Of a stretch of DNA of 24,892 nucleotides, positions 12,025-21,267 are shown in pieces. The stretch is from Pyrinomonadaceae bacterium (lineage in GTDB: Bacteria; Acidobacteriota; Blastocatellia; Pyrinomonadales; Pyrinomonadaceae). Below the pieces are notes generated by a model. It was not told the origin of the DNA and searched no databases. It worked only from the letters and a program-made list of their open reading frames with translations. Each line of letters opens with the position of its first letter. Positions within the stretch are counted from its first letter, which is position 1. Where the stretch lies: the NCBI GenBank assembly GCA_035697925.1, contig DASSCG010000354.1, forward strand, positions 1 to 24,892, read 5' to 3'. Made by a program: the position numbers and the translations under genes.

Positions 12025-12648
12025 TCATAGAGCCAGGAAATTTTCGATTACGCTCTTGCCGGCGGGGAATTCTTCGTTAAAAAGTTCGGGATGAAACTGA
12101 ACTCCAAACAATGGGCGGTTTTTGTGCTGCATCGCCTGGATTTTACAAACTTCGTTAGAGGCAGTGCATTTGAACCCATCCGGAATTTCCTTCACCTCGT
12201 CACAATGCGAGTGCCAGACGGTAATCCTATTCGGCAAGTCCTTGAAAATTCCATTGCCGTTAGTTTCGACCTCGAAATAACCTCGCTCCCTTTTGGCGCC
12301 CTCATAGCCCTTGCCAGGCCCTAAACGCTCCATTAAGTCGATTGGGGCTCCATAAGAGAGAGCAATCTGTTGGTGACCCCCACAAACGCCTAGCATTGGT
12401 TGCGAGGCTTTATGGATAACCTCAAACACTCCAACTAGTGATTCCGAGGAATAATCTGCCCAAGGGTTGCTCTGGCCGCTAAGGATGATATGTGACGGAT
12501 TGAGCCGGCGGACCCTTTCCAGCGAAACCTCGCGGAAAGGTTCGGTTAAGATCTCCGCCTCAGGGCGTAATCGGCCGAGGACCGCCCGTAACTCCCTCGG
12601 GCTCTCGCCGCGGCCATCGATCGTGTTGTCGACTAGATAAATCAGCAT
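12025..12648 (-). CDS. Stand-alone class I glutamine amidotransferase-like protein
   Basis: 207 aa with IILSGQ, nucleophile elbow LGVCGGHQ, VWHSHCDEV and GVQFHPE (Cys-His-Glu triad intact). It resembles the GuaA GAT domain but has no synthase domain. Confidence 0.88.
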   Translation of the reverse strand: MLIYLVDNTIDGRGESPRELRAVLGRLRPEAEILTEPFREVSLERVRRLNPSHIILSGQSNPWADYSSESLVGVFEVIHKASQPMLGVCGGHQQIALSYGAPIDLMERLGPGKGYEGAKRERGYFEVETNGNGIFKDLPNRITVWHSHCDEVKEIPDGFKCTASNEVCKIQAMQHKNRPLFGVQFHPELFNEEFPAGKSVIENFLAL

Positions 12649-12674
12649 TCCAGGGAAAATGACCCATTAAGCTC

Positions 12675-13913
12675 TCAGCCCAGACAGAAAAGCTTTCCGT
12701 TAAATGCCCCAATATAAATGCGGCCACCCAGAATTGCCGGAGTTGCGTTGACGTTTTCGCCAATCTTAAGTTCCCAAAGTCGTTGACCATCCTCCGCGGA
12801 AAGCATGTATAGCCACCCTGCCTTATCACCAAACACGACGCGGCCATCGACTACGGGCGATGTGCCCCAGATCGGACCCCGGACCTGGTGCTGCCAGATA
12901 ACCTCACCTTTTTCAGAGGACAAGCAATAAAGCAAGCCATTATTCGATCCGATGTAAACTCGACTACCTTTGACAATGGGACTTGCCCAAAAACCGCTGC
13001 GTTCCTTATAGATTCTACTTAGTCCACCGTCTGCCTTGAACTTCCAAGATAACTGGCCGTCCGCCTGGCTAAAACAGTAGACATACCCGTCTTCGGCGGC
13101 GGTATACACAAATCCATTTGCCACTGCGGGGGTCGAATTTGAATCAGCTCCTATAGTGGCTTTCCACAGAACCGACCCATCAGTTAGAGCGAGACAATAC
13201 AAATCTCCTTGCTCTGTACCGATGTAGACACGGCCCGCGACCACGGAAAAGCTTCCCTCCATCGAACCCAAACGCGCGGTCTTGTATTCGAGAGTGCCAT
13301 CCTCGAGCTTGAGACAATAGAAATAACCGTCTTCGCCGCCAAAGTATATCCGCCCATCAATTATGGCTGGCGAGCTGTCTACTTCAAACCCAGTCTTATA
13401 CTTCCAAATGAGTGAACCATCGTTTACATCCAGGCAATAGATGTAATGATCGAGACCACTGGCAATCAGGCGATTCCCGGCAATTGTTGGTGTTGTTTTC
13501 AAGCTGTCGGCGGCTTTAAAACTCCAGAGGAGGCGGCCATCCTGGTTATCCAGGCAATAGACATAACCATCCGCGGAACCAAAGAAAACGCGTTGACCCG
13601 AAACGGATGGTTGTCCGGGCCAACTTGATCCTCCCCAACCCTCTTTATGCAAACGGCCTGAAATCAGCTCCGTTTCAAACTCCCAAATTACCGCCGGTGG
13701 GCGATCCGGCCACGGGCCCGACCCATAAAAGTTACGAGCCGGAGTGCCGAGCCACATGGGAAGTGAGGTAGGGGGAACCTGCTCATTCGCCGCCAAGCGA
13801 GGTTCCGCCTCGGTTTGTTTAACGACATTGCTTCCACAACCCGCGGATGACAGACCAATCCAAAGGATCAGGAGACAAGCGTAGCTTCTATTTGTCGGGA
13901 AGGCGGAGAGCAT
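12675..13913 (-). CDS. PQQ-like (BamB-type) 8-bladed beta-propeller lipoprotein
   Basis: 412 aa with a lipobox-like LSSAGC. About 8 repeats of the form SP.v.dG.vyfG..dG.lYCl...dG...W.f. Confidence 0.88.
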   Translation of the reverse strand: MLSAFPTNRSYACLLILWIGLSSAGCGSNVVKQTEAEPRLAANEQVPPTSLPMWLGTPARNFYGSGPWPDRPPAVIWEFETELISGRLHKEGWGGSSWPGQPSVSGQRVFFGSADGYVYCLDNQDGRLLWSFKAADSLKTTPTIAGNRLIASGLDHYIYCLDVNDGSLIWKYKTGFEVDSSPAIIDGRIYFGGEDGYFYCLKLEDGTLEYKTARLGSMEGSFSVVAGRVYIGTEQGDLYCLALTDGSVLWKATIGADSNSTPAVANGFVYTAAEDGYVYCFSQADGQLSWKFKADGGLSRIYKERSGFWASPIVKGSRVYIGSNNGLLYCLSSEKGEVIWQHQVRGPIWGTSPVVDGRVVFGDKAGWLYMLSAEDGQRLWELKIGENVNATPAILGGRIYIGAFNGKLFCLG

Positions 13914-14035
13914 GGGGCAATTCTTTTTGTTCTAAGTTTACTGCGAACTCGCCAGAGAGTATCAAAATGTGGGCCGAATCGAAATGGTTCGGCAGATAGC
14001 AGCTTAAGCGCAATCAAGCCCAAGAATACCGGTTG

Positions 14036-14902
14036 TTAAGTTACCACAGATGCCAGCCATGCGCCTTCATAGACCAACTCTGCGGGCGCATTGATTACCA
14101 CTTCTCCGTCCTCACGCCATTGAATTTTCGCGGTGCCGCCTACCATTTGCACATCTATGGAGCGCTCCGTTTTTCCGCCAACCATCGACGCTACAGCAGC
14201 TGCACATGAACACGTGCCTGAGGCGGTAGTTTCTCCCACGCCCCGCTCCCAAATGCGAAGTTCTATTGTGTGTCGATCTTTCACGCGAATAAACACAACG
14301 TTCGTACGATCGGGAAACTGTTTATGGTTTTCTATTTTCTTTCCTAAGCCTCGCCAGTCGAGCGACTCGAAGCTGTCAACAAAAATACAGCAATTTGGAT
14401 TTCCCATTTGGAGAGCTGTTACGTCAAGCAGATCTCCATTCACGGCGAGAGGGTAGTCGATCACTTTCTCCAATGGTCGGTCGGTAACCATTGGGATGAC
14501 ATCACTGGCTAACCCTGGTTGGCCCAGCTCCGAATCGAACAGATACTTGCCGGGCTCGGAATTCCGGACTAAGAAATAACGCTTAATCCCCGAACGAGTA
14601 CTCAAGCGAAGTTCTTCGCCACTCCAGAGTTTTTTATAGTGAACGTAGGCGGCGGCGCAGCGCGTGCCATTTCCCGAGAGACCAGCTTCGCTGCCATCCG
14701 GATTGAAGATCCGTACTAGAAAGTCTGCCTCTGCAGGCGTGTCTTTACCAACCACGGCGATACCATCGGCGCCGGCTCCGTAATGCCGGTTGCAGATACG
14801 TCGAGCAAAGTCGCCCCAGTCGGTAAGGTCTTTAAGTTCATCCGACTCTATAACGATATAGTCATTACCAAAGCCGTGAAACTTAATGAAACGGATTGCC
14901 AT
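14036..14902 (-). CDS. dapF: Diaminopimelate epimerase, Ser/Ser active-site variant
   Basis: 288 aa with FIKFHGFGNDY, RHYGAGADG, NPDGSEA..SGNGTRC, MGNPNC, FPDRTNV and WERGVGET.ASGT. The DapF fold is clear, but both catalytic Cys positions are Ser. Confidence 0.9.
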   Translation of the reverse strand: MAIRFIKFHGFGNDYIVIESDELKDLTDWGDFARRICNRHYGAGADGIAVVGKDTPAEADFLVRIFNPDGSEAGLSGNGTRCAAAYVHYKKLWSGEELRLSTRSGIKRYFLVRNSEPGKYLFDSELGQPGLASDVIPMVTDRPLEKVIDYPLAVNGDLLDVTALQMGNPNCCIFVDSFESLDWRGLGKKIENHKQFPDRTNVVFIRVKDRHTIELRIWERGVGETTASGTCSCAAAVASMVGGKTERSIDVQMVGGTAKIQWREDGEVVINAPAELVYEGAWLASVVT

Positions 14903-14909
14903 TTGTGGT

Positions 14910-16595
14910 TTAGGATTTTCCGGAAAAAGAGGATAACAAAACTGCTATAGGATCAATGCAGATCGACCTAACATCAGTGTCCACTGGATAATTATTCACC
15001 ATAATAGAAAACGCCAGGTTTTCACCGGCTGCGGTTGTTAGAAAGCCTGACAGACTCGCAGCTGAACTAAGTGAGCCGGTTTTGGCGCGTACATTATTCT
15101 CAGCAGGCGTGCCCCTCATTCTGTTTCTTAGAGTGCCGTCAATTCCGGCAATCGGCAACGCCTCGCGAAAGACCTCCCCATAACGATGCCGGCTCATGTA
15201 CGTCAGCAACTGAACAGACGCTTCAGCCGTAATCATGTCATTTCGCGAAAGTCCTGATCCATCAGTTAACGCTAACCCACTTGTATTGACTCCAGCCTCC
15301 TTAAGAAAGGTTTTGACGATCTCGAGTCCTGCTTCCTCGCTGGTCCGGTTAACTATCGGCAACCCAGGTGGAGGGGGTACAACTTTCCCCAAAGTTCTAA
15401 GAATTAATTCAGTGTATAGATTCTGGCTGGGTTTCAGCGTTTGAGCGGCAATCAGGCTTAGCGGTGGTGATTGCATGCTGGCGATTTCAATTCCGCCAGT
15501 AGGTCTTGATAGCTGAAAGCCGTTCGTGTAAGCGCGCGCTGGAACGGTTCGTGATTTACCGGTAAAGGTAATTCCACGTTGGGCCAGTGAAGAGCGCAAT
15601 AGATAAACGAACAAGAGTCCGGGATGTGAGATGCCGATTCCTGCTGAGTAACCGCGGTCATCAATTGGAATAGTTCCGTGGATCTCGAGCGAATCCGCGC
15701 CCAGGCTGCGATGGAGAGTTAACTCTCGTCTACTTCCTCTGGCCCCCGTAGTTACGCGATTGACAATAGCCAACAGTGGATCGGGCGGGCCGGTTGTGAT
15801 TACAGCAGGTACGCCCACGGCAGAGCCGGGCTTAACAGACAAATCCAGCGCATTGTCGTTGATAGTCAGCGCACTGACTTCAGCGCCATACCACCATTGC
15901 AAATCCTCCCAGTTCCAACCTGAACCATACTGCGGTCCAATAAAATAGGTCTCGTCCCCGACGAGGTCGCCCTCGACTCGCTTCACTCCGGTCGCTGCGA
16001 TTTGTGCAGCCAGTTCGTTAATGCCTTTGAAGTAGTCGCCACTGTTGAACCGGGCCGCGATTGATGGATCGCCTCGCCCATAAACAGTCAGGTCACTACG
16101 AAGAATCCCTGCGGAGTCAGGCCGAGACGTGGCGTACACAGAAGTGACAAATTTGTAGTCAGGAGAAAGCCGATCAAGCGCCGCAGCGACAGTGTAAAGT
16201 TTCATGTTCGACGCAGGTCGAAGCAGCTTGCCGGCGTTTTCTTCGAACAGAACCTTTCCACTTCCCAACGAAGTAACTTTTATTCCCACCATAGCGGGCG
16301 CTAATTCCGGTCTGGCCAAGACTTCAGAAATGCGAGCCTGTAATTCGCCAATGGTTCTGGCGCCATTTCGCACCGGTTGAATCGTCACCGGCGCTTCGTC
16401 AGGACTCACAAGAGGAGTCGGACTGACGACAGGAGTAGGTGAGGGAAGAGGCGTAGGCGTGTTAGTCGGCGAAACCAACACCCTTCGATCGCGTTGCGGT
16501 TGTTGCCGGCCATAACGCGCAGGGACGACGGCAAAAGTAGACGTCAGGAAAAGATTGAGACTGAGTATCTTCGCTAAATACGTCTGATTGATCAT
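14910..16595 (-). CDS. dacB: D-alanyl-D-alanine carboxypeptidase/endopeptidase (PBP4, peptidase S13)
   Basis: 561 aa with a signal peptide, SxxK (PASNMK), GRGDPS, SxN (PSQNLYTE), DGSGLSR, GIDGTL and KTG (AKTGSL). Confidence 0.95.
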   Translation of the reverse strand: MINQTYLAKILSLNLFLTSTFAVVPARYGRQQPQRDRRVLVSPTNTPTPLPSPTPVVSPTPLVSPDEAPVTIQPVRNGARTIGELQARISEVLARPELAPAMVGIKVTSLGSGKVLFEENAGKLLRPASNMKLYTVAAALDRLSPDYKFVTSVYATSRPDSAGILRSDLTVYGRGDPSIAARFNSGDYFKGINELAAQIAATGVKRVEGDLVGDETYFIGPQYGSGWNWEDLQWWYGAEVSALTINDNALDLSVKPGSAVGVPAVITTGPPDPLLAIVNRVTTGARGSRRELTLHRSLGADSLEIHGTIPIDDRGYSAGIGISHPGLLFVYLLRSSLAQRGITFTGKSRTVPARAYTNGFQLSRPTGGIEIASMQSPPLSLIAAQTLKPSQNLYTELILRTLGKVVPPPPGLPIVNRTSEEAGLEIVKTFLKEAGVNTSGLALTDGSGLSRNDMITAEASVQLLTYMSRHRYGEVFREALPIAGIDGTLRNRMRGTPAENNVRAKTGSLSSAASLSGFLTTAAGENLAFSIMVNNYPVDTDVRSICIDPIAVLLSSFSGKS

Positions 16596-16615
16596 TTTAA
16601 TTAGCTGTAGTTTGA

Positions 16616-19090
16616 TTAGGATTGCTTCAGAGAAGATTGGGAATGTTGAGCTTCATGCATTAGCCTGACTCGGGCCATTAGCTCCTGGAACCTTGGGTGG
16701 TCGCGAAGGGAGCTCCAATTTGGATCGTTCTCGAAACATGGACGGTTCTCGTTACCGAGAGAGATGGAACGTTCCAGCCATTCGAAAGCTTCATCCCGCA
16801 TGTCTTCAACGGCATAGACTGACGCAACCGAATATGCAATGTCCGGATCGACCTCTGCATTGCGAATGACCGCATCGCTTAATTGCGCGCGCGCCTCTTG
16901 GTGTTTTCCCTGGGCACTCAAAAACATAGCCAGAAAGGGTCGCACCCCATGCATATTTGGCCGGCGGCTAATTACCTGCTGCATTAGTTCGGCGGCATCG
17001 TCGGTATGGCCGGTGTAATACAACGCCAGTGCCCTGAATGTCGCGACTAGTGGATTATCCTGCTCGCCGGCATTGTCCAGTTGGCGCATGGTCTCATCGA
17101 AGTGTCCCATATACATGTGAACGATGGCTCGGTTATAACTCGCCACGACGTGTGCCGCCGGATCTAGTCGCACCAGCCGGTCATAGCTGCGGAGCGCGCG
17201 TCCGTATTCGCCATCAAGCCGGTGCAAAGTCGCTTTGACAAAATGCACCACTGCTTCATCAGGTGCTTCTTTCCGCGCCCGGGCCACCTCTTCCCGGGCT
17301 TTTTGTTTTTGTCCACGCCACATGTAGACAAAGACCATCAGCATCCTCGCCTCGATCAGATGCGGATCGATCGACAACGCCCTGCCGAAGGCAGCTTCCG
17401 CCCGTTCGAAGTCCTCTGCGCCACCCAACCCCTTAAAAACGCGATTGACGTAAGAAGCACCCAAACCGTCGTGAGCCAGAGCAAAATTTGGGTCGAGCTC
17501 AACAGCTCGCTGGAAGTGTTCGATGGCAGCATTGCAATCCTCGGGAGCAACTGTGCGGAAAATAAAACGGGCAAAGAGGTCGCGACCGCGCAAATACTGT
17601 TCGTACGCTGCTGCGTTTTGGGTAGATGGTTTCGCGATGCCAGCTTGCTCAGCGTGGCTAAGCTCGAGCCGCAAGCCCTCAACGATACGTTGAGCGATAG
17701 TATCCTGGACCGCGATGATATCTGACGCTGAGGTGTCGATGCGATCGCTCCAGAGGATCTCCCCCGAAGCGACATTAAGCAATTGCGCGGTTACTCGAAA
17801 TCGCTCACCCGCATGTATGAATCCAGCGGCGAGAACTGCGTTAACGTTTAGCTCTCGTCCCACCTCACGCGGATCGATTTGTTGGCCCTGGTACCTTGAA
17901 ATGACAGATGAAGGTCGCACGACCAGCGATCGCACTCTCGCCAACTCGGTGATGACCGCATCAGCCAAAGAGAACTCATAAAAACTCGACGCAGTGTCGT
18001 TACTTAGATTTCTAAAAGGCAGGATTGCAAGACTCTGCTTTTCCTGATCAGTCTGAGTGGTCGACGGTGTTTCATGTACTCCGGGCTTTGGAGTAAGTAG
18101 TGTGGGAGCGGTAGTTTGAATATCAGACTTAGTGATCGATTTAAACCACCGCATGGCTCGTGATACGGGACTTGTTCCTCCCAGGTAACGCGGAGGCTCG
18201 GGCGTGACAGTGACGAACGGCTGACCGGCTGATTCGGAAAGAGAAAGGTCCTGCAATACCGTTCGCAGATCGTCGCGCATTTCTTCCATTTTCTGATACC
18301 GATCTCTTGGCTTTTTGGCCATAGCACGGTCCAGAATCTGTTGAAGACGCGGGGGAATGGGTTCGCTCCGCATTTCAGCGACTGGCTGAGGCGCATCGTG
18401 TAAGACTGCATGACGCACATCAATCGTAGTCTTACCACGGAAGGGCCAAGTGCCGGTCAACATCTCATAAAGAAGGACACCGGTCGAAAAAATATCAGCA
18501 CGCTTATCAACGCGATCGCCACGCGCTTGCTCGGGCGCCGCATAAGTCGCCGTCCCATAAGGCACACCGACCTCGGTTAGTTCGGTGCGGTGGATGCCGG
18601 TGGCGGCCGCCTCTGTATCATCAAGCAATTTCGCGAGGCCAAAATCCAGGATCTTGACCTGACCTCCGGGCGACACCATCACGTTCCCCGATTTGATATC
18701 ACGATGAATGATGCCGCGAGCATGGGCTGCGGCCAGAGCATCAGTTACTTGAAGGGCGATCAGCAATGCGCTCTTCAATTCCAGTGGATGACCTCCTACC
18801 AATTGCCGCACGTTCCGGCCCTCGATGTGTTGCATCGCGATGAAATGTAGTCCCTCGGCTTCATCAAGATCGAAAATAGTGCAGATGTTTGGGTGATCAA
18901 GGGACGAGGCGAGCCGGGCTTCGCGTTCGAAGCGCTTGAGGTTTGCTTCTTTGGCGGTGAGTTCGGTTGGCAGAACTTTAATTACAACCGTGCGCCCGAG
19001 CTTGGTATCGGTGGCTTTGTAGACCGTGCCTTGCCCGCCAGCCCCGAGCTTTTCCAGGATGCGATAGTTGCTTAGGTTCTTGCCAATCAT
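16616..19090 (-). CDS. Cytoplasmic Hanks-type Ser/Thr protein kinase with TolB-like N-terminal-type domain and TPR repeats
   Basis: 824 aa with LGAGGQGTVY, VVIK, HRDIKSGN, DFGLAK, APEQ and DIFSTG. A middle SLAILPFRNLS...LADAVITELA domain is followed by C-terminal TPR-like helices (AIEHFQRAVELDPNFALAH). No transmembrane segment seen. Confidence 0.93.
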   Translation of the reverse strand: MIGKNLSNYRILEKLGAGGQGTVYKATDTKLGRTVVIKVLPTELTAKEANLKRFEREARLASSLDHPNICTIFDLDEAEGLHFIAMQHIEGRNVRQLVGGHPLELKSALLIALQVTDALAAAHARGIIHRDIKSGNVMVSPGGQVKILDFGLAKLLDDTEAAATGIHRTELTEVGVPYGTATYAAPEQARGDRVDKRADIFSTGVLLYEMLTGTWPFRGKTTIDVRHAVLHDAPQPVAEMRSEPIPPRLQQILDRAMAKKPRDRYQKMEEMRDDLRTVLQDLSLSESAGQPFVTVTPEPPRYLGGTSPVSRAMRWFKSITKSDIQTTAPTLLTPKPGVHETPSTTQTDQEKQSLAILPFRNLSNDTASSFYEFSLADAVITELARVRSLVVRPSSVISRYQGQQIDPREVGRELNVNAVLAAGFIHAGERFRVTAQLLNVASGEILWSDRIDTSASDIIAVQDTIAQRIVEGLRLELSHAEQAGIAKPSTQNAAAYEQYLRGRDLFARFIFRTVAPEDCNAAIEHFQRAVELDPNFALAHDGLGASYVNRVFKGLGGAEDFERAEAAFGRALSIDPHLIEARMLMVFVYMWRGQKQKAREEVARARKEAPDEAVVHFVKATLHRLDGEYGRALRSYDRLVRLDPAAHVVASYNRAIVHMYMGHFDETMRQLDNAGEQDNPLVATFRALALYYTGHTDDAAELMQQVISRRPNMHGVRPFLAMFLSAQGKHQEARAQLSDAVIRNAEVDPDIAYSVASVYAVEDMRDEAFEWLERSISLGNENRPCFENDPNWSSLRDHPRFQELMARVRLMHEAQHSQSSLKQS

Positions 19091-20082
19091 TTGAACGAGG
19101 AGATCAACTCCTCGGAACTTGCCGTAGCCGTGCCAACTTTGCCGACGACAATACCAGCAGCATGGTTTGCGAGGTTCGCTGCCTGAAGCATAGTCGCTCC
19201 AGCCGCCATGGCTGCGGCCAGAGTCGCGATCACCGTATCGCCGGCACCAGTCACATCATAAACCTCGCGTGCCGCCGTTTCGACAAAAACTGGTTGGCCG
19301 TTACCTTCTAACAGCATCATGCCGTCTGGCCCTCGGGTAATTAGAACAGCGTCACAATTGAGTTTCTCTCGGAGGAGTTGGGCAGCCCGATGGAGTCCCG
19401 AATCTGAGTCTTCCTCCAAGCCAGTCATCCGGAGTGCTTCGTGGTGATTTGGCGTCACCAGAGTTGCCGGTCGGTACGACGCGAGATTGCGAATCTTTGG
19501 ATCTATAAGAACGGGAATTCGGTTGTAAGCCAGGGGCAATACTTCAGTGAGGATTCGGGGAGTTACCACTCCCTTGTCATAGTCCGAGACTACGAAAGCG
19601 TCCGCATCCTTCAGAGCCTCCTTCAAGATGCTGATGATTCGTTCCTCTGTCCTTCCATTTACTGCACTTCGTAACTCCCGGTCAGCGCGGACCACTAACT
19701 GACTATGCGCGATGATTCGGGTTTTGACGGTGGAAGGTCTGCTTTCGTCAATCACAATGCGTTCGTCTGACTGCAAGGGGCTGGCGTTGCGCAAACTCGC
19801 GCGCAGACGTTCGCCAGCCGTGTCTTTTCCCACTACGCCAACTACGCAAGCCTGTGCTCCCAGGGCAACGAGGTTCGCGAGTACATTGGCAGCACCTCCG
19901 AGATGAACCGATTCGCGCCGGATTTCCACCACCGGTACCGGCGCTTCGGGAGAAATGCGGGACACATCACCCCAAACAAATTCATCCAACATGACGTCGC
20001 CGAGGACAACGATCTTTCGGTCGCGGAACGCTCGAGTCAGCCCTTGAATTTGTTCCCGAGAAAAGTGGTCCATGCCTGTCAA
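19087..20082 (-). CDS. rfaE1: D-glycero-beta-D-manno-heptose-7-phosphate kinase (stand-alone RfaE1/HldE kinase domain)
   Basis: 331 aa with VLGDVMLDEF, SRISPEAPVPVV, GGAANV, SDYDKGV, TPNHHEA and DVTGAGDT. There is no C-terminal adenylyltransferase domain. The start may be 20073 (MDHF). Confidence 0.92.
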   Translation of the reverse strand: MTGMDHFSREQIQGLTRAFRDRKIVVLGDVMLDEFVWGDVSRISPEAPVPVVEIRRESVHLGGAANVLANLVALGAQACVVGVVGKDTAGERLRASLRNASPLQSDERIVIDESRPSTVKTRIIAHSQLVVRADRELRSAVNGRTEERIISILKEALKDADAFVVSDYDKGVVTPRILTEVLPLAYNRIPVLIDPKIRNLASYRPATLVTPNHHEALRMTGLEEDSDSGLHRAAQLLREKLNCDAVLITRGPDGMMLLEGNGQPVFVETAAREVYDVTGAGDTVIATLAAAMAAGATMLQAANLANHAAGIVVGKVGTATASSEELISSFK

Positions 20083-20109
20083 ACTTCCGCGCTACAACGC
20101 CCGGGTCTA

Positions 20110-21267
20110 CTAAATATGCCTATTCCTCTCATTCAGAACTCTCGCAACAGCAGCCACAACTCGATCAACCGGGACTCGCCTAATACATTCCGGTTGTTCA
20201 AACTTTTCACAGAAATAACCATGGCAGGGTTGACACTCCATCTCTTCAATCACAATCTCCGCTGGAGCTTTGGCCCAAGGCCTCCAATGAGCAGTGTTTG
20301 ACGACCCGAAGATGACGACTGAGGGGGTAGCAACCGCGGCAGCAATATGCGCAATTCCGCTGTCGTTGCCGACGAAGAGCCGGGCCTGAGAAAGAAGTGC
20401 GGTTACCTCCGGCAATGAGAGGTCGGTAAAGGTTAATAGCGGCGCAGGTGTTTGTTCTCTCAATCTCTCAGCGAGATGAGATTCTGATTGCGCTGTGATC
20501 GCAACTACTGACAGTCCTCGAGATTCGAGATGTTCAGCTACTCTCGCAAATTTGTCTGTGGCCCATTGCTTTGTATCGAACGCAGCCGCCGGATGAATTA
20601 CTGCCAAAGGCTTTGAGGATTTGTCAAAACCAGCAGCCTCCAACCTCGCCGATATTTTGGCCGCAGCCTGATCCGTGACTGCCAGACGAGTCGCAGGTCG
20701 ATCCGTGACCGGCACACCTGTCCAGCCGAGCAACGCAAGTTGTTGTTCAACTGAATGTGTCTTTTCTCGATCCCACAGCACCGACGAAGGAGGCGAAAGG
20801 TGATTGTGCAATCGCCCATATTGATAGGTTGAATAGCCAACCCGATGTGTCGCTCCGGATGCTCGAGTAAGTAACGTTGATGTGGTTCCGCCGTGAAGGT
20901 TGTACGCGACATCATATCTGGCAGCTCTTAATTGGCGCGCAACGGCTGCGCGCCCAGTGGTGCTGCCGCGTTTCAGTGTGATGATGTTATCAATGTATTC
21001 GAACCCTTCGAGTACGGGTGCAACCCAGTCCTCAAGAAGAATATCGACCCGTGCATTCGGCAGAAAGCGCTTTAACGCGAAGAGAGAAGGTGTCGCTAAG
21101 ACCGTGTCGCCAATCGAGCGAAGCCGTACTACGAGAACGCTCCGTACGCTTTGCCAATCCCAAAGGGCAGGACCTAATGGCTGAGCTGAGTCTTCGGCGC
21201 GCAATGTATGCATCGCTACGGACCGCATTTGTGGAGAGGCTTCAACTATTTCTCGCAGACTCTTCAT
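20110..21267 (-). CDS. Glycosyltransferase family 9 (LPS heptosyltransferase-like)
   Basis: 385 aa with VRLRSIGDTVLATP, IHPAA..TKQW and FVGNDSGIAHIAAA..TPSVVIFG. The start overlaps the upstream stop (ATGA); later Met codons are alternative starts. Confidence 0.9.
   Translation of the reverse strand: MKSLREIVEASPQMRSVAMHTLRAEDSAQPLGPALWDWQSVRSVLVVRLRSIGDTVLATPSLFALKRFLPNARVDILLEDWVAPVLEGFEYIDNIITLKRGSTTGRAAVARQLRAARYDVAYNLHGGTTSTLLTRASGATHRVGYSTYQYGRLHNHLSPPSSVLWDREKTHSVEQQLALLGWTGVPVTDRPATRLAVTDQAAAKISARLEAAGFDKSSKPLAVIHPAAAFDTKQWATDKFARVAEHLESRGLSVVAITAQSESHLAERLREQTPAPLLTFTDLSLPEVTALLSQARLFVGNDSGIAHIAAAVATPSVVIFGSSNTAHWRPWAKAPAEIVIEEMECQPCHGYFCEKFEQPECIRRVPVDRVVAAVARVLNERNRHI

What the first reader, a model, noticed from the sequence alone, without database searches (positions are those of the whole stretch)
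14036..14902. DapF with both catalytic cysteines replaced by serine, plus a new nearby Cys
Seen in the sequence: the canonical DapF motifs CGNG (E. coli Cys73) and ACG(S/T)G (Cys217) read SGNG (Ser76, codon TCG, 14675-14677) and ASGTC (Ser228, codon TCA, 14219-14221). Each codon differs from a Cys codon at two positions, so a single sequencing error cannot explain either. The Gly that normally follows is Cys231 (SGTCSC). Substrate-contact motifs (GNDY, NPDGS, GNP, TNV, ERG) are retained, and the gene sits 7 nt behind dacB, which argues for a functional PG/lysine role. Established knowledge: PLP-independent epimerases normally use a thiol/thiolate pair. I recall that Ser/Ser DapF variants have been reported as active, so this may be a rare subtype and not unprecedented; I cannot verify that here. 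Inference: an oxidation-insensitive or mechanistically different epimerase, or one with altered substrate specificity.
Basis: partly seen in the sequence, partly recalled or inferred. Interest (0 to 1): 0.66.

Follow-up and report, generated by a model that had tools for sequence, protein, structure and literature searches.

The report
Natural serine-for-cysteine DapF epimerase gene
This soil acidobacterium's only detectable diaminopimelate epimerase gene (lysine and cell-wall synthesis) really has serines where textbook enzymes have two catalytic cysteines, but such serine enzymes were reported as active in 2025, so this is a further example and not a new kind.

Summary
ORF 14036-14902 (-) is a full-length DapF (TIGR00652, 223 bits against a cut-off of 115). 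Alignments to solved DapFs place Ser76 and Ser228 at the two catalytic cysteine positions.

It is not an error. All 120 closest homologues, all 30 classified loci from seven families of the same class, and contigs from four independent metagenome runs carry the same serines, with synonymous TCN codon turnover.

All DAP-contact residues are kept, and the AlphaFold model matches closed Anabaena DapF (TM 0.89). No second dapF was found in this 70%-complete genome. Most related genomes also gave a single match. LysA and a DNPR-type MurE are present in relatives, and no meso-DAP dehydrogenase was found.

Natural Ser/Ser DapFs are already published as active: Lamer et al., J Mol Biol 2025, known here only through its citation in PMC13728532. 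This scan has also noted them on other DNA many times.

Cys231 is a local feature of this genus and one sister genus. It replaces a Gly whose backbone NH contacts the catalytic side chain. Other Ser/Ser enzymes have Gly or Ser there, so Cys231 is not required for Ser/Ser chemistry.

Verdict: new member of a known kind, modest interest.

The parts
14036..14902 (-). dapF coding sequence, 288 aa (P0001), the Ser/Ser type of diaminopimelate epimerase
   Evidence: It scores 223.5 bits on TIGR00652 (cut-off 114.65) and hits PF01678. The AF2 model has pLDDT 95.6 and TM 0.89 to 9mro_A.
14675..14677 (-). Ser76 codon (TCG), at the position of the first catalytic Cys (the Cys of CGNG)
   Evidence: It aligns to the catalytic Cys in the PDB alignments. 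Ser is invariant in 36 diverse Ser/Ser sequences. TCC, TCA, TCG and TCT are all used at this site across the class. No variant appears in four runs.
14219..14221 (-). Ser228 codon (TCA), at the position of the second catalytic Cys (the Cys of ACGTG)
   Evidence: The evidence is the same as for Ser76.
14210..14212 (-). Cys231 codon (TGT), at the +3 position after Ser228, where canonical DapF has Gly
   Evidence: It aligns to Gly227 of Anabaena DapF, whose backbone NH lies within H-bond distance of the catalytic side chain (PMC12039745). Cys (TGC or TGT) occurs in the own genus, except G021, and in genus g15. The other families have Gly.
14910..16595 (-). dacB-like D-Ala-D-Ala carboxypeptidase (Peptidase_S13), ending 7 nt upstream of dapF
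   Evidence: PF02113, E 5.6e-100. The dacB-dapF linkage is found in the genus loci whose flanks reach it and in no locus of the other families.
12675..13913 (-). PQQ/BamB-like beta-propeller gene, 122 nt downstream of dapF
   Evidence: PF13360 and PF13570. It is syntenic with dapF throughout the genus.

Best explanation
This is the housekeeping LL-diaminopimelate epimerase of a Pyrinomonadaceae-like acidobacterium (taxon labels from the names of its nearest homologues), of the natural Ser/Ser type. It binds LL- or meso-DAP with the same residues as canonical DapF. It most likely inverts the proximal alpha-carbon by the same two-base, 1,1-proton-transfer geometry. The hydroxyls of Ser76 and Ser228, which are the N-cap residues of the two active-site helices, would take the roles of the thiolate/thiol pair. 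Its product feeds LysA (lysine) and MurE (peptidoglycan). Shown here: gene identity, the Ser/Ser state, its conservation, retained binding residues, fold, and pathway context. Inferred: catalytic activity and the acid/base role of the serines, by analogy with the Ser/Ser DapFs reported active by Lamer et al. 2025. Cys231 is a lineage-specific second-shell change next to Ser228 and is not a required catalytic residue.
For: The protein scores above the DapF equivalog cut-off. The model takes the DapF fold, with closed DapF 9mro as its best match. Every DAP contact listed for Anabaena DapF in PMC12039745 is kept, as N13, N67, N168, N201, E219, R220, G77, N78, G229 and T230. Both serines are fixed across 120 close homologues, and 39 of the 40 Ser/Ser cluster representatives form one supported clade, with synonymous codon turnover at both sites. 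Most class genomes gave a single DapF match, and all 30 classified loci are Ser/Ser. No second copy was found in the own genome. LysA is present in the own genome and in four complete relatives. No meso-DAP dehydrogenase was found in those five genomes. DapA is present in four of the five. MurE carries the DNPR motif in four relatives. Ser/Ser DapFs are published as using two catalytic serines (citing J Mol Biol 437:169375).
Against: No assay exists for this protein or, as far as I could see, for its lineage. The Lamer paper itself was not readable. The only cyanobacterial Ser/Ser paralogue I could fetch, from Nostoc paludosum (L145), is 36% identical to this protein and separates from its clade in the quick tree. 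Engineered Cys-to-Ser mutants of canonical enzymes of this class are strongly impaired (PMC11602996). I found no new conserved general base that distinguishes Ser/Ser from Cys/Cys sequences. The own genome is only 70% complete, so a second dapF cannot be excluded there.
Confidence: 0.8

Rival explanations
1. The protein has the DapF fold but a changed reaction or substrate, for example an elimination/dehydratase-type activity or a different diamino acid, as happens in the proline-racemase superfamily when a catalytic Cys is replaced. Under this reading meso-DAP would be made by some other route.
For: The defining thiol pair is missing. Solved relatives with the same fold include 3-hydroxyproline dehydratases, PhzF and O-ureidoserine racemase.
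Against: All DAP-specific contacts, including the distal-end residues N67, N168, N201, E219 and R220, are kept. Those other families match far more weakly than DapF does. No alternative route (Ddh) or second DapF was found in complete relatives that have LysA and a DNPR-type MurE.
Confidence: 0.08
2. The protein is a catalytically dead DapF kept for a non-enzymatic role, such as a partner of another protein in the way E. coli DapF activates RppH. The cell would then tolerate LL-DAP in its wall or import lysine.
For: Engineered Cys-to-Ser mutants are poor catalysts. One relative, G035, lacks a dapA match yet keeps dapF, so pathway completeness varies within the class.
Against: A dead enzyme would not be expected to keep every substrate contact and both serines fixed, with synonymous turnover, across 39 diverse 50%-identity cluster representatives. 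The literature reports Ser/Ser DapFs as using the serines catalytically.
Confidence: 0.05
3. Cys231 has taken over as the acid/base on the Ser228 side, making a functional Ser/Cys enzyme, or it forms a redox switch with Cys233 (the C-S-C motif).
For: Cys231 sits at the +3 position, whose backbone NH contacts the catalytic side chain in Anabaena DapF. It is conserved with both TGC and TGT codons across the genus and in all 120 close homologues. Residues other than Gly at +3 were seen only on a Ser/Ser background: 7 of 45 classified Ser/Ser rows against 0 of 98 Cys/Cys rows.
Against: Most Ser/Ser DapFs, including one genome of the same genus (G021) and all other families of the class, have Gly there. 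The Nostoc Ser/Ser paralogue has Ser at that position.
Confidence: 0.07
4. The Ser codons are a sequencing or assembly artefact, or the gene is a decaying pseudogene.
For: No evidence supports this beyond the unusual residues themselves.
Against: The frame is intact and the same residues occur in hundreds of independent assemblies and in four independent runs. Variation nearby is synonymous only.
Confidence: 0

Closest known systems
[quoted passage not shown]
   Same: It has serine at both catalytic positions, the DapF fold and retained DAP-binding residues.
   Different: The cited example, Anabaena sp. YBS01, has the Ser/Ser enzyme as a second copy beside a Cys/Cys DapF. Here, and across the class, the Ser/Ser gene is the only DapF match in most genomes. 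The Nostoc Ser/Ser paralogue I could fetch (L145) is 36% identical and has a different motif around the second catalytic Ser than this protein's A-S-G-T-C-S-C. The AU test does not reject a single clade holding both (p 0.86). Whether an acidobacterial-type enzyme was assayed in that paper is unknown to me.
Canonical Cys/Cys DapF (EC 5.1.1.7; e.g. Anabaena 9MRO, H. influenzae 1GQZ/2GKE, E. coli 4IJZ, P. aeruginosa 8QZY)
   Same: It is 31-37% identical over the full length, with the same two-domain fold, the same substrate contacts and the same place in the lysine and peptidoglycan pathway.
   Different: Both catalytic Cys are Ser. Second-shell positions differ between Ser/Ser and Cys/Cys sequences at 85, 122, 217, 227, 232 and 253. 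The Gly at +3 is Cys.
Engineered C73S / C217S H. influenzae DapF (2Q9H, 2Q9J) and HisR C67S / C209S
   Same: They also have Ser at a catalytic Cys position in the same fold.
   Different: Those are single laboratory substitutions that hinder catalysis (PMC11602996). This is a naturally evolved double substitution with co-adapted surroundings. According to PMC13728532, reverting Ser to Cys in the Anabaena Ser/Ser enzyme inactivates it.

Membership tests
DapF, diaminopimelate epimerase (TIGR00652 / PF01678) | Full-length profile match above the curated cut-off | tested here: met
   TIGR00652 gives 223.5 bits against 114.65. PF01678 gives E 2.3e-52 with two stretches.
DapF, diaminopimelate epimerase (TIGR00652 / PF01678) | Two pseudo-symmetric alpha/beta domains, with the catalytic residues at the N-termini of two helices | tested here: met
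   The AF2 model has pLDDT 95.6. Helices start at residues 77 and 229, directly after Ser76 and Ser228. TM is 0.89 and rmsd 2.2 to 9mro_A.
DapF, diaminopimelate epimerase (TIGR00652 / PF01678) | DAP-contact residues (Anabaena N13, N66, N164, N197, E215, R216, G76, N77, G225, T226) | tested here: met
   All are conserved, as N13, N67, N168, N201, E219, R220, G77, N78, G229 and T230.
DapF, diaminopimelate epimerase (TIGR00652 / PF01678) | Catalytic thiol/thiolate cysteine pair | tested here: not met
   Ser76 and Ser228 occupy both positions. This places the protein in the Ser/Ser subtype, not the canonical one.
DapF, diaminopimelate epimerase (TIGR00652 / PF01678) | LL-DAP to meso-DAP epimerase activity | not testable with these tools
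   Only context is available: a single dapF match in most genomes, LysA present, no Ddh found, and a DNPR-type MurE in relatives.
Natural Ser/Ser DapF (Lamer et al. 2025) | Serine at both catalytic positions, fixed by selection | tested here: met
   120 of 120 close homologues, 30 of 30 class loci and 36 of 36 diverse Ser/Ser sequences carry the serines. All four TCN codons are used.
Natural Ser/Ser DapF (Lamer et al. 2025) | Same evolutionary lineage as the biochemically characterised enzyme(s) | tested here: inconclusive
   The Nostoc Ser/Ser paralogue L145 is 36% identical. The quick tree separates a 43-row clade from a 3-row clade, but the AU test does not reject a single clade (p 0.86). 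The characterised sequences themselves were not available.
Proline racemase-like dehydratases / PhzF isomerases (same fold superfamily) | Closest structural and sequence match lies in those families, with their substrate pockets | tested here: not met
   These families match at E 1e-14 to 1e-16 and 13-17% identity, against 1e-29 to 1e-33 and 31-37% for DapF. Pfam gives no hit other than PF01678.

The most novel reading that the evidence does not exclude
In this Pyrinomonadaceae lineage a thiol-free Ser/Ser DapF has re-acquired a cysteine (Cys231, in a C-S-C motif with Cys233) directly beside Ser228. That cysteine takes part in proton transfer or acts as a redox switch on activity. This would be a third active-site arrangement for this enzyme class.
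Probability: 0.08. Interest if true: 0.5.

Novelty: new member of a known kind. Interest (0 to 1): 0.27.

Why it matters
Cofactor-independent amino-acid epimerases are textbook two-thiol enzymes and antibiotic targets, so a natural thiol-free version bears on both the mechanism and inhibitor design. Thiol-alkylating aziridine inhibitors may not act on it. That point was made in print in 2025. What this locus adds is modest. In a whole class of abundant soil Acidobacteriota the Ser/Ser form is apparently the sole DapF, not a spare copy, which argues that it carries the full physiological flux. The Gly three residues after the second catalytic position is replaced only on a Ser/Ser background, by Cys here and by Ser elsewhere. 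That pattern gives a concrete mutagenesis target.

Tried and rejected
- **Sequencing error:** rejected.
- **Second canonical dapF in the own genome:** none found, though the genome is 70% complete.
- **Meso-DAP dehydrogenase bypass:** none found in five genomes.
- **DapL:** neither DapL model (TIGR03542, TIGR03540) reached its cut-off. Only generic aminotransferase hits appeared, some next to dapA, so the transaminase step is left unassigned.
- **A new conserved general base separating Ser/Ser from Cys/Cys sequences:** none found. The discriminating positions are small or hydrophobic second-shell changes.
- **Reading Lamer et al. 2025:** not held by DOI or PMID. Text searches for other citing papers gave nothing further.
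- **Peptidoglycan chemistry of cultured Blastocatellia:** no usable paper found.
- **Measuring the Ser228-Cys231 distance:** not possible, because model coordinates are not exposed to scripts.
- **Searching genome contigs with a 36-sequence alignment:** this failed for lack of a conserved stretch. A 9-sequence alignment worked.
- **Taxon names through cluster look-ups:** mostly uninformative.
- **Independent origin of the two Ser/Ser groups:** suggested by the quick tree but not upheld by the AU test.

Full report
**Observation**

The window carries an intact 288-codon ORF on the minus strand at 14036-14902.
- It scores 223.5 bits on the NCBIfam DapF equivalog TIGR00652 (cut-off 114.65) and matches Pfam PF01678 in both halves.
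- phmmer alignments to solved DapFs from Anabaena (9mro), A. baumannii (5ha4), P. aeruginosa (8qzy) and Arabidopsis (3ejx) place Ser76 (TCG, 14675-14677) under the Cys of CGNG. They place Ser228 (TCA, 14219-14221) under the Cys of ACGTG, and Cys231 (TGT, 14210-14212) under the last Gly of CGTG.

**Not an artefact**

- All 120 best database homologues (69-99% identity, many independent metagenomes and MAGs named Pyrinomonadaceae, Blastocatellia or Acidobacteriota) have SGNG and S-G-[TS]-C.
- All 30 DapF loci fetched from 41 genomes of the same class (seven families) are Ser/Ser.
- At both sites the class uses all four TCN codons, so the amino acid is held while the codon drifts.
- Contigs of four independent soil and root metagenome runs laid on 13900-15000 show no alternative letter in the three codons. 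The nearest variants (14207, 14225) are synonymous third positions. These are assembled contigs, not raw reads.

**How large the Ser/Ser group is**

- Among the 150 best representatives of 50%-identity clusters, 40 are Ser/Ser, 99 are Cys/Cys and a few are mixed.
- In a tree of the full-length representatives (40 Ser/Ser among 139 rows), 39 of the 40 Ser/Ser rows form one supported clade that contains this protein.
- In an even draw of 120 high-quality genomes of the phylum, 118 have a DapF match, nearly always a single one. The 30 loci returned include five already fetched from this class; of the 25 new ones, 16 are Ser/Ser, 4 Cys/Cys, 1 Cys/Ser and 4 gave no motif match. One genome in that tally (G062) is unpublished.
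- Named loci with Ser/Ser include Aminicenantes, Terriglobia, Vicinamibacteria and Blastocatellia.

**What it is and does**

- Every residue that PMC12039745 lists as contacting DAP analogues in Anabaena DapF is conserved here. The paper's residues are N13, N66, N164, N197, E215, R216 and the backbone of G76, N77, G225 and T226. They correspond to N13, N67, N168, N201, E219, R220, G77, N78, G229 and T230.
- An AlphaFold2 model built on 36 Ser/Ser sequences has mean pLDDT 95.6. Ser76 and Ser228 sit directly before helices 77-89 and 229-241. The best structural match is closed Anabaena DapF (TM 0.89, rmsd 2.2). PhzF and proline-racemase-like proteins match far more weakly.
- Only one DapF match exists in the own genome, which is 70% complete. 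Nearly all related genomes also gave a single match.
- LysA is present in the own genome, at 287 bits (just under the 297.9-bit cut-off), and in four complete relatives.
- No meso-DAP dehydrogenase was found in those five genomes. DapA is present in four of the five.
- MurE of four relatives has the DNPR motif. From established knowledge of E. coli MurE, that motif marks DAP-adding enzymes.
- Together this makes a working DAP epimerase the most economical reading.

**Comparison with what is known**

[quoted passage not shown] It adds that Anabaena sp. YBS01 has one Cys/Cys and one Ser/Ser DapF, that replacing the serines by cysteines inactivates the enzyme, and that this may help cope with oxidative stress. 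It cites J Mol Biol 437:169375 (2025).
- The paper itself is not held, so I know it only second-hand.
- This scan has noted Ser/Ser DapFs on other DNA more than 80 times. One earlier bold reading is marked as fallen.

**Relation to the characterised type**

- I found a Cys/Cys plus Ser/Ser pair in Nostoc paludosum (L141 and L145).
- The Nostoc Ser/Ser paralogue is 36% identical to this protein, no closer than the Nostoc Cys/Cys copy at 39%.
- In the quick tree it groups with two other sequences apart from the 43-row clade that holds this protein.
- The AU test does not reject a single Ser/Ser clade. The constrained tree was in fact better than the one found by the short free search (p 0.86). 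The number of origins is therefore open.
- What differs biologically is that here the Ser/Ser gene is the sole copy in most genomes, not a paralogue.

**Cys231**

- All 120 close homologues, most genomes of the own genus (one, G021, has Gly) and genus g15 have Cys at +3, with both TGC and TGT codons. All other families of the class have Gly.
- In Anabaena DapF the backbone NH of this Gly (Gly227) is within H-bond distance of the catalytic side chain (PMC12039745).
- Among the sequences in my tree, the +3 residue is Gly in 98 of 98 Cys/Cys rows. In Ser/Ser rows it is Gly in 38, Ser in 4 and Cys in 3. Three of the non-Gly rows were added by me after I had seen their motifs, so these proportions are biased.
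- The smaller Ser side chain may leave room at +3. That is inference.
- Cys231 is therefore a conserved local second-shell change and is not required for Ser/Ser chemistry. Its role is unknown, and I could not measure its geometry.

**Mechanism**

- No new conserved His, Asp, Glu, Lys or Tyr separates Ser/Ser from Cys/Cys sequences. The discriminating positions are 227 (Ala to Ser), 232 (Ala to Ser), 85 (Lys to Ala), 217, 122 and 253.
- The likely mechanism is the same two-base geometry with the serine hydroxyls tuned by the helix N-termini and by desolvation. This is inferred, not shown.

**Context**

dacB-dapF-propeller synteny holds throughout the genus but not in other families of the class. 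The dacB linkage is therefore weak evidence for function.

**Verdict**

This is a real and well-conserved example of an already published kind. It adds the sole-copy status across a class and the +3 Cys.

Noticed in passing
L086, L100, L116, L117, L123, L134 (genome-contig loci): These DapFs are natural Cys/Ser hybrids, with Cys in the first catalytic motif (ETCGNG) and Ser in the second (ASGSGSC). They come from Hydrogenedentota and a few unassigned or Nitrospiraceae-labelled MAGs. The asymmetric pair is conserved across six assemblies. One acidobacterial locus (L045) is also Cys/Ser.
   Followed up: partly
L141 and L145 (Nostoc paludosum FACHB-159): One genome holds a canonical Cys/Cys DapF (325 bits) and a Ser/Ser paralogue (244 bits) whose second catalytic motif also has Ser at the +3 position. 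This matches what PMC13728532 reports for Anabaena sp. YBS01. Three other Nostocales genomes searched had only the Cys/Cys copy.
   Followed up: partly
G035 (3.7 Mb, 2 contigs, same class): No dapA match was found in this nearly closed genome, although lysA (406 bits), Ser/Ser dapF and a DNPR-type murE are all present. The upper DAP pathway may be missing there.
   Followed up: no
window 12025-21267, minus strand: A co-oriented run of genes surrounds dapF: GT9 heptosyltransferase, PfkB-family kinase, Ser/Thr kinase with TPR repeats, dacB, dapF, PQQ/BamB-like propeller and a class-I glutamine amidotransferase. Only the dacB-dapF-propeller part was checked, and it is conserved within the genus.
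   Followed up: partly
P0155, P0192, P0213 (Ser/Cys) and P0214 (Cys/Ser): Single representatives of mixed catalytic pairs are scattered in the tree among Cys/Cys sequences. They could be real intermediates or errors in single-member clusters.
   Followed up: no
G033:C26 (22172-34328) and G029:C1 (160467-164418): In two relatives a class-I/II aminotransferase that scores below both DapL cut-offs lies about 1-2 kb from dapA. In G033 lysA is on the same contig, about 8 kb from the aminotransferase. It is a candidate for the unassigned DAP transaminase step.
   Followed up: no
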